Shown here: positions 16,681 through 20,496 of the stretch, piece after piece
How the letters are laid out: the number at the start of each line of letters is the position of its first letter
Numbering within the stretch: the stretch's first letter is position 1
NCBI GenBank assembly: GCA_051599415.1
Contig: AP039708.1
Coordinates: 62,001-126,000 of the forward strand
Direction: 5' to 3'
Length of the DNA stretch: 64,000 nt
Source of the DNA: Savitreella phatthalungensis
Lineage: Eukaryota
The notes under the pieces: generated by a model
What the model was told of the DNA's origin: nothing
The model's input: only the letters and a program-made list of their open reading frames with translations
The model's database searches: none
Made by a program: the position numbers and the translations under genes

Positions 16681-17148
16681 CTACAGCTGCTGTCCGAGGA
16701 ACTGAGTGAGGGCAATATCAGCGACGATGCGCCTCATCAACCCTGGATTAGCCGGGTCGTCGTAGGCGAAGGTTTCATGAACGTGTGCCCTGGCGAGATT
16801 GACGCCTACACCGACATCCAAGCCGAAGTCAGCAATGACGACACCGCTGCCATTGACGGCGTACGTGTCGTTCTCAACCGCTCTGATCACCAGGTACTGG
16901 GGACCGTACTTGAGATCCCGGCGGAGCTGAACACCCGAGTAACCAGTCTGGATTCCAGCCTCGACGCGCGTGCAGTTCGGGTGGAAGGGCACATCAGAAG
17001 GATCGTGAGTAGCCAAGGCCTGCACGTAAGCCCTCGCGCCAGCAATCTTGCACCCATCGTCACACGACCCAGCCGTCGGAGCACCAGCTGCAGAAAACGT
17101 TGTGAAGGCCAACAGGCCGAGTAAAGTGGATGGCAATGAAGACAACAT
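16681..17148 (-). CDS. Small secreted protein with SnoaL/NTF2-like features
   Basis: 155 aa intronless ORF; hydrophobic signal peptide, CDDGC, and ARAYVQALATHDPSDVPFHPNCTRVEAG; TATAA-like element upstream (about 17190-17194). Confidence 0.75.
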   Translation of the reverse strand: MLSSLPSTLLGLLAFTTFSAAGAPTAGSCDDGCKIAGARAYVQALATHDPSDVPFHPNCTRVEAGIQTGYSGVQLRRDLKYGPQYLVIRAVENDTYAVNGSGVVIADFGLDVGVGVNLARAHVHETFAYDDPANPGLMRRIVADIALTQFLGQQL

Positions 17149-18350
17149 GCTGTCACAATGGGACGCTGGATCAGGGAGATCCGCCGTCCTTATACACTAG
17201 AACAGACCTGTCATGATCGACACTTGAGGACTGGGGTAAAGTTGACAAGGACTTAGGTCTGCGGATCCACCAGCGGGGAAAGAGCTTAACGGGATCTATC
17301 TGGTTCGCAATTATCTACCATATTGGGGAGGAGATCTGCACCTGTCAAAAAAGCAAGGGAGCCGCCGAGAAGCCTTAAGCTCAAGAGCTCACGTGTACAC
17401 ATTAGCCACTCTCAGCCACATTCACCCCATCCTGTGTCTACGGGAGTGTTTTTGATCCAGAGCTCTATTGAGCGTGAAGCGGGATATATGGTGGGAGGGG
17501 TCATAGCCGCTTTCGCTACATAAGCTACATTCAGGATTCTAGGACGCAGGAGACAATCGGGATTTGCGTCATTGCTCCGATCAAGGGATGAACTTGGCGC
17601 GGAAGAAATTGGTCATTTGGGCAGCGAGGATAGAAATCGCATATCTATTTATGGAACGGGAAATAGCCGCTCTCACCAGCCTCGGTTTACAATTCAGATT
17701 TGTCCGAGTTCATTCTGACACAGCTGAGATAGTCCTGAATTTTCAAGGATGGAATACTCGACCGTGATAGATCTCAGTTTGATCGGAACCCTATCTAACC
17801 AAAACCATTCACCTCGGGTTGATTCATCCCGTTAGAGGTGAAATCCAGGTGTGATTGAGGATGCTTGTAGGCGGGTCAAACGCTGAAATTCTAATTCCGA
17901 CTCCAAAACACCTTCGCATATGTGTACTGACTCTGATCAGACTCGAGATTTCCCTCGCTTGATTTAGACTGATTAGATTCAGATAAACTAGTAATCAAGC
18001 GGACAGATTGTTTGACTTTGGTTAGACTGTGTGAATAGGCAGACTTCAATTCAACCGGATGATCGAATGGATTATTTGCTTGGATTCAACCATTATCCGA
18101 TCATCTACCACCACAACCATAGAATCCCGCTTCACACTACACAGTAACAATATCCAGTCTCCATGGGAGAATATGCTCCTTAATCCCTCTGGCTGGAGAT
18201 TCAAATCTTCCGCTCACACTCTCTCTCTTACTTGATTTGCTCCTTGACTTGCTCTCGGTAAGGGACGGTAGGCTGTCGTGTAAGCATCTCAATCTGGATC
18301 TCAAATCTACAATTTTTGTTTCAACTCTGGCTGAATTGGAAACACACATG

Positions 18351-18361
18351 CAGCCGCAGCA

Positions 18362-18398
<37 letters not shown>

Positions 18399-18404
18399 CA
18401 GCAA
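18351..18404 (+). repeat. Imperfect (CAG)n microsatellite followed by a CA-rich tract
   Basis: cagccgcagcagcaacagcagcag...caggagcagcaa, directly visible. Confidence 0.9.
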
Positions 18405-18677
18405 TCAACCACACACACACACACACACAACCAACTAAGTATCTTCCTCCTCACTCCTGCGTTCACTACCCTACGCAATCCATACACTCACACACTCTCA
18501 CTCACTCCATCCCCTCTACACACCTACACACCCATACTCACTCTCACACCCACAGACACATCCTTACAACAAACATCAATCCACAGCACAACTCTCTAGA
18601 CCAGATCTCTTAGAACGTCGTTGAACTCATTCACCGGCATTCAAGCTACTTAAATCTTCTGCAAACCAAAAAAAAAG

Positions 18678-18746
18678 GTTCGTCCAGGATAACTCTTCAT
18701 CTCATCGCCATCGCTGATTGAGCACATACTGACCTCTATCTCACAG
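18678..18746 (+). other. Putative 5'-leader intron of INO1
   Basis: AAG|GTTCGT donor, TACTGAC branch point at 18727-18733 and CACAG acceptor; the 69 nt length matches other introns in the window. Confidence 0.7.
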
Positions 18747-18765: not shown

Positions 18766-18876
18766 ACGGAGAAGGTGCCCACCACGTTTTCCACACATCT
18801 GCCTAGCTCGCACCACCCTTTCAACTCTACAAAGACTGCCAACACGGGCGGTAATCAACTTCCAGCAACAAAGTAA
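18766..18876 (+). promoter_or_regulatory. Candidate non-AUG (ACG) uORF in the INO1 leader, 36 aa (M)EKVPTTFSTHLPSSHHPFNSTKTANTGGNQLPATK
   Basis: ACG GAG at 18766 opens a frame that ends at TAA 18874-18876, 15 nt before the INO1 ATG and in frame with it. There is no AUG in this leader exon. Confidence 0.45.
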
Positions 18877-18891
18877 TTCGATTTGATCATC

Positions 18892-20496
18892 ATGGCTCCT
18901 CACGCTACAAACACCGAATCTCCTTTCGCAGGAACCTCTTCCAGCAGCGCCAATGCTGGACCCAAGATCGTCGTCAAGACTGACAAGTCTCACATCGACG
19001 CAGCCGGTAACATCATCACCGACTACACATACGACAATGCCGTCGTCAAGCAGGTCGGTGACAAGTACGAGGTTACTCCTACCCAGTCCAAGTTCACCTT
19101 CAAGACCGACACCAAGGTTCCCCGCACCGGTCTCATGATGGTCGGTCTCGGTGGCAACAACGGTAGCACCATGACTGCCGTCGTCCACGCCAACCGCCGC
19201 AACCTCGAGTTCAACACCCGTCGTGGACCAGTCAAGTCCAACTACTACGGATCCGTCACTCAGGCTGCCACCGTCAAGATCGGTGTCGATGACAAGGGTG
19301 ACGACTTCTACGTCCCCTTCAACCACGTTCTCCCCATGGTTGACCCCTCTGACCTCGTCATCGGCGGTTGGGACATCAACAACGCCAACCTGGCCGAGGC
19401 CATGTCACGTGCTCAGGTGCTTGAGTACGACCTTCAGCGTCAGCTGCAGAAGGAGCTCTCCCAGTACACTCCACTCCCTTCCATCTACTACCCTGACTTC
19501 ATCGCCGCAAACCAGGGCGAGCGCGCCAACAACCTCATCCCAGGTGATGACAAGTGGGCTCACGTCGAGCACATCCGTAAGGACATCCGCGAGTTCAAGG
19601 AGCGCAACATCCTCGAGAAGGTCATTGTCGTCTGGACCGCCAACACGGAGCGTTACGCCGACATTGTTGCCGGCGTCAACGACACCTCTGACAACCTCCT
19701 CAAGTCTATCAAGGCTTCCCATGCCGAGATTGCGCCCTCGACCATTTTCGCCGTCGCATGTATTCTTGAGAAGACTCCCTTCATCAACGGTGCTCCACAG
19801 AACACCTTTGTGCCCGGAACCATCAAGCTCGCTGAGGAGCACAACACCTTCATCGGTGGCGACGACTTCAAGTCAGGCCAGACCAAGCTCAAGTCCGTCC
19901 TCGCCCAGTTCCTCGTCGATGCTGGTATCCGCCCGGTCTCGATCGCCTCGTACAACCACCTTGGCAACAACGACGGTTACAATTTGTCTGCTCCGCAGCA
20001 GTTCCGCTCGAAGGAGATTTCCAAGGCCTCTGTCGTCGACGACATCATTGCCTCCAACCAGCTTCTCTACAACGAGGAGAAGGGCAAGAAGATCGACCAC
20101 TGCATCGTCATCAAGTACCTCAAGGCTGTCGGCGACACGAAGATCGCCATGGACTCCTACGAGTCGGAAATCCTCATGGGCGGCCGTAACACCATCACGG
20201 TCAATACCGTATGCGAGGACTCTCTCCTGGCCACACCGCTCATCATCGACCTCGTCGTCATGGCCGAGCTCTTCTCACGCGTCCAGTACAAGCTAGAGGG
20301 CGAGTCTGACTTCTCCAACTTCCACGCCATTCTTACCGTGCTCTCCTACTGGCTCAAGGCTCCTCTCCACCGCGAGGAGCGCGTTGCCATCAACGGTCTC
20401 AACAAGCAGCGTGCTGCCATCGAGAACCTCATGCGCGCTTTCCTTGGCATTGGACCCAACAACGAGATGCGCCTGGAGACCATCCTCTCCCAGTGA
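18892..20496 (+). CDS. INO1: Myo-inositol-3-phosphate synthase
   Basis: [50 protein letters not shown] and [14 protein letters not shown]; strong C-ending codon bias; first ATG at 18892. Confidence 0.98.

What the first reader, a model, noticed from the sequence alone, without database searches (positions are those of the whole stretch)
18766..18891. Candidate inositol-responsive non-AUG uORF in the INO1 leader
Seen: the leader exon has no AUG. An ACG followed by G opens a 36-codon frame (EKVPTTFSTHLPSSHHPFNSTKTANTGGNQLPATK) that stops 15 nt before the INO1 AUG, in the same frame. The peptide is higher in complexity than the CA-repetitive DNA further upstream. The -3 context of the ACG (T) is weak. 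Known: near-cognate-initiated conserved uORFs act as metabolite-sensing stalling peptides in AZIN1 (polyamines) and plant GGP (ascorbate). I recall a similar element being proposed for fungal INO1 but cannot verify its sequence here. Inference: this uORF may give translational feedback on inositol synthesis. No exact UAS-INO (CATGTGAAAT) was noticed upstream.
Basis: partly seen in the sequence, partly recalled or inferred. Interest (0 to 1): 0.72.

Follow-up and report, generated by a model that had tools for sequence, protein, structure and literature searches.

The report
Ancient non-AUG uORF before fungal INO1
A hidden 30-codon reading frame that starts at ACG instead of AUG sits just before the inositol-making gene of this fungus; its peptide is kept across distant fungi and apparently also in amoebae, so it is very probably an old translational brake on inositol synthesis.

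Summary
The uORF is real, but it starts 18 nt later than reported. The conserved start is the second ACG (18784, A at -3), giving 30 codons to TAA 18876, 15 nt before INO1 in a Taphrinales-like fungus. Of 80 metagenomic INO1 loci, 38 carry the whole homologous uORF (26-34 codons; core F-S-x-x-L-x-S-x-H-H-P-F) and 2 a cut-off part. pN/pS is 0.34 in frame versus 1.12 and 1.68 shifted; a matrix built without the window scores it 35 bits, next best 5. Carriers include Taphrinomycotina, Saccharomycotina, Pezizomycotina and two contigs grouping with the amoebozoans Dermamoeba and Cochliopodium. Those two use AUG in weak context; fungi use ACG, CUG or AUU in strong context, so leaky initiation looks selected. 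Best model: a metabolite-sensing stalling peptide giving inositol feedback, like AZIN1, GGP and AAP uORFs; translation and inositol sensing are inferred, not shown. This scan noted the element three times before in filamentous fungi. Ten literature searches found no description; I recall unverified Neurospora work. New here: corrected start, Taphrinomycotina, breadth beyond fungi.

The parts
18784..18876 (+). Conserved uORF: ACG start, 30 codons, TAA stop. After the initiator it reads FSTHLPSSHHPFNSTKTANTGGNQLPATK
   Evidence: the pattern for start plus HHP motif matches once in the 12.7-Mb genome, here (pattern designed after seeing the alignment)
18777..18786 (+). Near-cognate start in strong context (gcccaccACG; A at -3)
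   Evidence: A at -3 in 19 of 21 distinct uORFs, the 2 exceptions being the two AUG-started ones
18787..18825 (+). Conserved peptide core, codons 2-14 (F-S-x-x-L-x-S-x-H-H-P-F-N)
   Evidence: 5 to 11 of 13 residues identical to each of 20 homologs; L6 and S8 invariant in 21 of 21, S8 with both TCN and AGY codons
18826..18873 (+). Variable C-terminal half of the uORF; length conserved, sequence only loosely (small and basic residues, often GG near 22-24)
   Evidence: 1-3 ungapped identities to the window peptide after residue 14; lengths 26-34 codons
18766..18783 (+).
   Evidence: no ACG at this position in 0 of 28 homologs; in-frame stops here in three lineages
18877..18891 (+). 15-nt spacer between uORF stop and INO1 AUG
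   Evidence: in homologs the gap is -28 to 122 nt and all three frames occur (6, 5, 10 of 21)
18892..20496 (+). INO1, myo-inositol-1-phosphate (inositol-3-phosphate) synthase, 534 aa, no intron, single copy found
   Evidence: PF07994 E 1e-142 and PF01658; 80% to Protomyces lactucae-debilis; groups with Protomyces and Taphrina 100/100; one match in G000
18678..18746 (+). Predicted 69-nt leader intron upstream of the uORF (GTTCGT donor, CTGAC branch, CAG acceptor); not confirmed by RNA
   Evidence: sequence signals only

Best explanation
A conserved-peptide uORF that gives translational feedback on inositol synthesis. SHOWN: the frame from ACG 18784 is under purifying selection as protein, with a conserved start position, an inefficient start codon and a narrow length, across widely separated INO1 genes. 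INFERRED: (1) most scanning 43S complexes leak past the ACG and reach the INO1 AUG when inositol is low; (2) the few ribosomes that start at the ACG make the peptide, and when inositol or a close derivative is high the nascent F-S-x-x-L-x-S-x-H-H-P-F segment, then about 15-20 residues up the exit tunnel, stalls the ribosome late in the uORF or at its stop; (3) the stalled 80S blocks scanning, and here sits only 15 nt from the INO1 AUG; queued ribosomes behind it (81-96 nt is about three footprints) park scanning complexes over the ACG and raise its use, which amplifies the switch; (4) termination far upstream of the 3' end also exposes the mRNA to NMD. Probability that it is a translated, selected cis-regulatory uORF: about 0.93; that the signal is inositol or a direct derivative acting through stalling: about 0.65.
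For: 38 of 80 metagenomic INO1 loci carry the whole uORF: 28 picked by motif and resolved, plus 10 of the other 45 scannable loci by matrix at 16.9-17.7 bits (7 had leaders under 45 nt); L031 and L083 are cut inside it. Codons 2-13, 21 distinct peptides: pS 0.79, pN 0.27, ratio 0.34, against 1.12 and 1.68 in the shifted frames; window versus the rest 0.42 against 1.37 and 1.54; whole-length 0.16 in the Taphrinomycotina-like clade (5 loci) and 0.43 in Pezizomycotina (8 loci). Third-position entropy 1.39 bits versus 0.82 and 0.65. The frame survives introns at two different positions (after nt 7 and after nt 23), and unspliced or intronless loci L067, L022, L016, L032 show it directly. Starts: ACG 17, ATG 2, GTG 1, CTG 1 of 21 and ATT in the L048 group; near-cognate starts have A at -3, the two AUG starts have T at -3. 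An independent profile search (alignment A3, no window sequence) of 1.84 billion proteins gave 39 hits at E <= 0.001; 34 hold the whole motif, with T (29), I (4) or M (1) at the start position and 27-32 residues from there to the C-terminus, 4 hold part, 1 is unrelated. In Cryptococcus neoformans INO1 mRNA rises in a upf1 deletion (10.64898/2026.02.19.706931, passages read), as expected for a uORF-NMD target. Precedent: near-cognate conserved uORFs in good Kozak context regulate ODC/AZIN1 (PMC2811004, passages) and plant GGP (PMC11066809, passages); ACG can initiate in N. crassa extracts (PMC5487733, passages).
Against: No ribosome, RNA or reporter data for any locus; the transcription start is unknown, so that the uORF lies in this organism's mRNA is inferred from transcript-like homologous contigs. 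Nothing here identifies the ligand. Invariance at residues 2, 3, 10, 11, 12 is partly built in, because selected on them, which also biases pN/pS down; the leave-out matrices and L6/S8 are free of that. Conservation is N-terminal, whereas ODC/AZIN1 uCCs conserve C-terminal prolines, so the stall site is not obvious. The 39 profile hits have no genomic context, and some repeat my own loci (P0391/P0392 match L067). 33 scanned loci had no hit; 15 of these had 217-600 nt of upstream sequence, including one Pezizomycotina locus (L059), one basidiomycete-like transcript (L076) and a Paraglomus-like locus (L013). No close Taphrinales leader could be fetched. The upf1 effect is for another species whose leader I did not see and may be indirect. 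The genome also has an Opi1-family gene, so transcriptional control may suffice.
Confidence: 0.65

Rival explanations
1. A translated, peptide-dependent cis-regulatory uORF that answers to another signal (ER stress, inositol phosphates, phospholipid status, glucose-6-phosphate, phosphate, pH or metal through the His-His pair, start-codon stringency) or acts as a constitutive damper and NMD trigger.
For: All conservation evidence fits equally; no ligand evidence exists; INO1 rises in a Cryptococcus upf1 mutant under rich medium.
Against: Known conserved-peptide uORFs on biosynthetic genes mostly answer to the pathway product (AAP passages); a constitutive damper would not need a fixed peptide.
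Confidence: 0.22
2. The uORF makes a released micropeptide that acts in trans, for example on the INO1 enzyme or an inositol regulator.
For: The conserved part is the N-terminal 13 residues, which would be exposed on a free peptide; length is narrow.
Against: Selection keeps the start inefficient in two different ways (near-cognate in strong context, AUG in weak context), which minimises product; the element always sits directly upstream of INO1; no Pfam or PDB relative.
Confidence: 0.08
3. A conserved RNA element (structure or protein-binding site) or an N-terminal extension of INO1 by stop readthrough, with only apparent coding.
For: In this window the uORF is in frame with INO1 and only 15 nt upstream; the nucleotides before the start are conserved.
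Against: Synonymous sites are near saturation and Ser8 switches TCN/AGY; no consensus fold (RNAalifold empty), local fold z -0.02, no Rfam family; frame relative to INO1 is 0, 1, 2 in 6, 5, 10 of 21 and the gap runs from -28 to 122 nt.
Confidence: 0.03
4. The first reader's ACG 18766 is the working start in this species (36 codons), or shares the load.
For: It is in frame, upstream, and has G at +4.
Against: T at -3; absent in 28 of 28 homologs, blocked by in-frame stops in three lineages; 18784 aligns exactly with the conserved start and has A at -3.
Confidence: 0.05

Closest known systems
Upstream conserved coding regions (uCCs) of ODC/antizyme inhibitor AZIN1 mRNAs (PMC2811004, passages read)
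   Same: Conserved peptide uORF, non-AUG start in good Kozak context, upstream of a small-molecule biosynthesis gene, found across fungal phyla.
   Different: No sequence kinship; uCCs conserve C-terminal residues (adjacent prolines) and are thought to have arisen separately in each phylum, whereas this peptide conserves residues 2-14 and is alignable across phyla; different gene and presumed ligand.
Plant GDP-L-galactose phosphorylase (GGP/VTC2) ACG uORF (PMC11066809, passages read)
   Same: ACG start, proposed product feedback on a rate-setting biosynthetic enzyme, NMD link.
   Different: Unrelated peptide and kingdom; GGP regulation was tested with reporters, this was not.
Fungal arginine attenuator peptide (AAP) of arg-2/CPA1 (PMC7049704 and PMC5640933, passages read)
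   Same: Short pan-fungal conserved peptide uORF, metabolite-dependent stalling, NMD substrate.
   Different: AAP starts at AUG (recalled); unrelated sequence (no Pfam match).
Conserved near-cognate uORF of Neurospora inl / fungal INO1 ('inositol regulatory peptide'; recalled only, not found in print here) and this scan's three earlier notes on filamentous-fungus INO1
   Same: Same gene, ACG start; the Pezizomycotina loci here (L067 is 99% Fusarium) have the intron-split, often Cys-bearing form those notes describe, and it aligns with the window peptide (up to 11 of 13 core residues).
   Different: The window copy is intronless, Cys-free and from Taphrinomycotina; the family is here extended to yeasts of the Sugiyamaella group, a Zoopagomycota-like contig, an unnamed basidiomycete-like clade and two amoebozoan-like contigs. 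I could not see any published sequence, so identity with the recalled element is untested.

Membership tests
Conserved-peptide uORF (CPuORF) | Peptide conserved upstream of orthologous main ORFs, with purifying selection in one frame | tested here: met
   38 of 80 loci; pN/pS 0.34 versus 1.12 and 1.68
Conserved-peptide uORF (CPuORF) | Separate from the main ORF (own stop; frame to main ORF not fixed) | tested here: met
   stops TAA 19, TGA 2; frames 6/5/10 of 21
Conserved-peptide uORF (CPuORF) | Lies in the mRNA leader and is translated | not testable with these tools
   no reads for this organism; transcript-like homologous contigs (e.g. L067, spliced) show it in leaders of other species
Non-AUG uCC class (AZIN1/GGP type) | Conserved near-cognate start in good Kozak context | tested here: met
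   19 of 21 near-cognate starts, all with A at -3; ATT group also A at -3
Non-AUG uCC class (AZIN1/GGP type) | Repression depends on the pathway metabolite and on the peptide sequence | not testable with these tools
   needs reporters or toeprinting
ODC/AZIN1 uCC family proper | Adjacent prolines near the C-terminus, upstream of an ODC homolog | tested here: not met
   main ORF is INO1; the window C-terminus has no PP and is variable across homologs
AAP / any Pfam leader-peptide family | Match to a curated profile | tested here: not met
   0 Pfam families at E <= 1 for the window, L067 and L010 peptides
Recalled Neurospora inl inositol-regulatory uORF | Sequence homology to the published peptide | not testable with these tools
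   no paper found in 10 searches; two reviews not held

The most novel reading that the evidence does not exclude
One inositol-sensing arrest peptide has been kept upstream of INO1 since before fungi and Amoebozoa split, making it one of the oldest conserved uORFs known. Its leaky start is held by two interchangeable solutions (near-cognate codon in strong context in fungi, AUG in weak context in amoebae), its sensing motif is N-terminal with a length-only spacer, and no copy was found in the CTG-clade and Komagataella-like yeast loci, where transcriptional control may have taken over.
Probability: 0.4. Interest if true: 0.85.

Novelty: new member of a known kind. Interest (0 to 1): 0.7.

Why it matters
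INO1 control is textbook only as yeast transcription (Ino2/Ino4/Opi1, recalled). A conserved translational switch would be a second, probably older, layer working in most other fungi, including pathogens that depend on inositol supply, and would add a polyol to the short list of metabolites read by a nascent peptide in the ribosome. The 30-codon, intron-free copy here with a defined start and core is a ready test object, and the amoebozoan-like copies make the question of the element's age directly testable. Gene annotation misses it everywhere because it lacks an AUG.

Tried and rejected
Frame +1 idea: after reading that earlier notes called the peptide Cys-rich, I suspected the overlapping +1 frame (two Cys, open across the predicted leader intron); homologs conserve frame 0 only, so rejected. 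I first took the intron-after-nt-23 clade for basidiomycetes; one search showed it is Pezizomycotina. RNA structure: rejected. Readthrough into INO1: rejected. RNA evidence: no RNA holder was listed, so no reads were laid. A single homolog peptide (L067) found nothing in the own genome because the first look gave no candidates; uninformative. PDB profile search: two chance matches, E 0.13 and 0.33. Viral scans gave six distant INO1 loci, not used. Literature: searches listed no paper on an INO1 uORF; text searches of PMC5676045, PMC5640933, PMC11550727, PMC7049704, PMC2811004, PMC12230235 and PMC5487733 found no inositol passage; supplements of PMC7049704 and PMC12934609 held no match, and the latter's data tables were not held. 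Two reviews most likely to mention it were not held, so absence from print is not shown.

Full report
Observation. The window holds an intronless INO1 at 18892-20496 (PF07994 and PF01658; one match in the 12.7-Mb genome). Its closest named relatives are Protomyces lactucae-debilis (80%) and the Taphrina deformans cluster, and it groups with them at 100/100, so the organism is Taphrinales-like. No ICRE-like WYTTCAYRTG (recalled consensus) with up to one mismatch lies between 15722 and 19401. A 69-nt intron is predicted at 18678-18746 from its donor, branch and acceptor signals; it is upstream of the uORF and unconfirmed.

Homologous leaders. Reading their upstream DNA showed the same peptide again and again. 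For the 28 loci picked that way a script found the start, an intron where needed, and the stop in all 28. The other 52 were scanned with a position matrix: 7 had leaders under 45 nt, 10 of the remaining 45 scored 16.9-17.7 bits (best of five shuffles at most 12.1) and carry a 27-codon ATT-started version, and 35 did not; two of those 35 (L031, L083) are contigs cut inside the uORF that show its 3' part. So 38 of 80 carry the whole element and 2 a part. Many are near-duplicates; one search reduced the first 28 plus the window to 21 distinct peptides. Of the 33 true misses 15 had 217-600 nt of upstream sequence: five yeast loci near Komagataella, Clavispora and Scheffersomyces (L015, L027, L047, L065, L071), a Paraglomus-like locus (L013), a choanoflagellate-like one (L040), one Pezizomycotina locus (L059), L076 and several protist-like loci.

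The start must be moved. All homologs begin with a start codon followed by Phe (once Tyr), which aligns to the second ACG of the window, 18784 (cccaccACGttt), not to 18766. None of 28 homologs has ACG six codons earlier, and L018/L019/L020, L022 and L025/L026/L041 have an in-frame stop within those six codons. The conserved uORF is 18784-18876, 30 codons, reading FSTHLPSSHHPFNSTKTANTGGNQLPATK after the initiator.

It is selected as protein. Over codons 2-13 of 21 peptides pS is 0.79 and pN 0.27 (ratio 0.34), against 1.12 and 1.68 for the shifted frames; window against the rest gives 0.42, 1.37, 1.54; within the Taphrinomycotina-like clade the whole uORF gives 0.16 and within Pezizomycotina 0.43. 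One search selected on residues 2, 3, 10, 11 and 12, which inflates their invariance, but Leu6 and Ser8 were not required and are invariant in 21 of 21, Ser8 with both TCN and AGY codons. A matrix built without the window gives window 18787 35.2 bits; the next of 84,617 13-mers scores 5.4. The frame is kept across introns at two different places (after nt 7; after nt 23) and in intron-free forms. A profile of 20 locus peptides without the window (A3) searched against 1.84 billion proteins returned 39 hits; 34 have the whole motif, Thr (29), Ile (4) or Met (1) at the start position and 27-32 residues to the end, 4 have part, 1 is unrelated; these hits lack genomic context and partly repeat my loci. 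No RNA structure explains it, and the frame and distance to INO1 vary freely, which excludes a readthrough extension.

Breadth. In the INO1 tree (37 loci and 37 reference proteins, duplicates and most protist loci left out; the fuller FastTree is) carriers fall among Taphrinomycotina (L008, L011, L018, L052; probably Archaeorhizomycetes, my guess), next to Sugiyamaella (L022, 99/86), in Pezizomycotina (L067 is 99% identical to a Fusarium protein; clade 100/99), in an unnamed clade that I take for Basidiomycota without a named reference (L032, L048, L051, L066), loosely with Zoopagomycota (L016, 97/73), and outside fungi: L030 with Dermamoeba algensis (86%, 100/100) and L010 with Cochliopodium minus (85%, 98/68 inside a 100/99 clade) (names, identities). 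A matrix from fungal peptides only scores L010 23.8, L030 22.8 and the unplaced L039 18.7 bits, reached by 0 of 1000 shuffles each. L010 and L030 come from different assemblies, differ at synonymous sites, and their uORFs overlap the INO1 start, which makes chimeras unlikely; but I could not see the leaders of the named amoebae, and the INO1 tree does not follow the species tree (Pezizomycotina do not join the other ascomycetes), so transfer of the gene with its leader is not excluded.

A selected weak start. Starts are ACG 17, ATG 2, GTG 1, CTG 1 of 21, plus ATT in the L048 group. All near-cognate starts have A at -3; the only two with T at -3 are the two AUG starts, L010 and L030. Two different routes to inefficient initiation point to leaky scanning as the selected property, which fits a cis-acting conditional brake better than a peptide made for use elsewhere.

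Mechanism. Shown: coding constraint, start position, weak start, narrow length (26-34 codons), constant link to INO1. Inferred: at low inositol most scanning complexes pass the ACG; at high inositol the nascent core, about 15-20 residues from the peptidyl-transferase centre when the ribosome nears the stop, arrests it; the arrested ribosome blocks scanning (here 15 nt from the AUG), queues others over the ACG, and invites NMD. The length, 81-96 nt in most copies, is about three ribosome footprints, which suits queuing; this is my reading, not a test. Indirect support: INO1 mRNA rises in a Cryptococcus upf1 mutant (10.64898/2026.02.19.706931, passages). Precedents: ODC/AZIN1 uCCs (PMC2811004, passages), plant GGP (PMC11066809, passages), AAP (PMC7049704, passages). 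Against: no expression or ligand data, N-terminal rather than C-terminal conservation, and an Opi1-family gene in this genome. Rivals: another signal or constitutive damping (0.22), trans-acting micropeptide (0.08), start at 18766 (0.05), RNA element or extension (0.03).

Novelty. It works like a known class (non-AUG conserved-peptide uORFs) but belongs to none of the named families (no C-terminal PP, different gene). Ten searches listed no paper on an INO1 uORF, but two reviews could not be read, supplements were only partly visible, and I recall, unverified, work on an inositol-regulated uORF in Neurospora inl; a prior description for filamentous fungi is quite possible. This scan had three earlier notes on it in filamentous fungi and none on amoebae. 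New here are the corrected start, the Taphrinomycotina copy, the cross-phylum alignment and the amoebozoan-like AUG forms. Verdict: real, conserved, very probably regulatory; new member of a known kind; interest 0.7.

Noticed in passing
INO1 tree: Pezizomycotina INO1 proteins do not group with Taphrinomycotina plus Saccharomycotina INO1 (100/100 clade) but with unplaced L039 (99/95) nearer holozoan and protist sequences: possible ancient paralogy or transfer; both gene lineages carry the uORF.
   Followed up: partly
L010:169-273, L030:40-138: Amoebozoan-like transcripts carry the uORF with an AUG in weak context, the only AUG in their leaders, overlapping the INO1 start out of frame.
   Followed up: yes
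L074:2630, L039:470, L048:2336: The start codon has switched to CTG, GTG and ATT in different lineages while position and -3 A are kept.
   Followed up: yes
L015, L027, L047, L065, L071 upstream 600 nt: No uORF found in CTG-clade and Komagataella-like yeast loci, although the Sugiyamaella-like L022 has it: probable loss within Saccharomycotina.
   Followed up: partly
L059 upstream 600 nt; L076:1-217: A Pezizomycotina locus and a basidiomycete-like transcript without the uORF: possible independent losses or longer leaders.
   Followed up: no
window 18348-18599: AUG-opened 83-codon frame over a CAG repeat (poly-Gln) and CA-rich DNA upstream of the leader; a CACATG E-box core at 18345; unknown whether transcribed.
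   Followed up: no
window 18678-18746: Predicted 69-nt leader intron with an uncommon GTTCGT donor.
   Followed up: partly
window 16681-17196 (-): 171-codon frame with a signal-peptide-like start, divergent from INO1; possibly a small secreted protein.
   Followed up: no
G000:C4:375230-376078: An Opi1-family gene (PF08618, E 4e-38) is present in this Taphrinomycotina genome.
   Followed up: no
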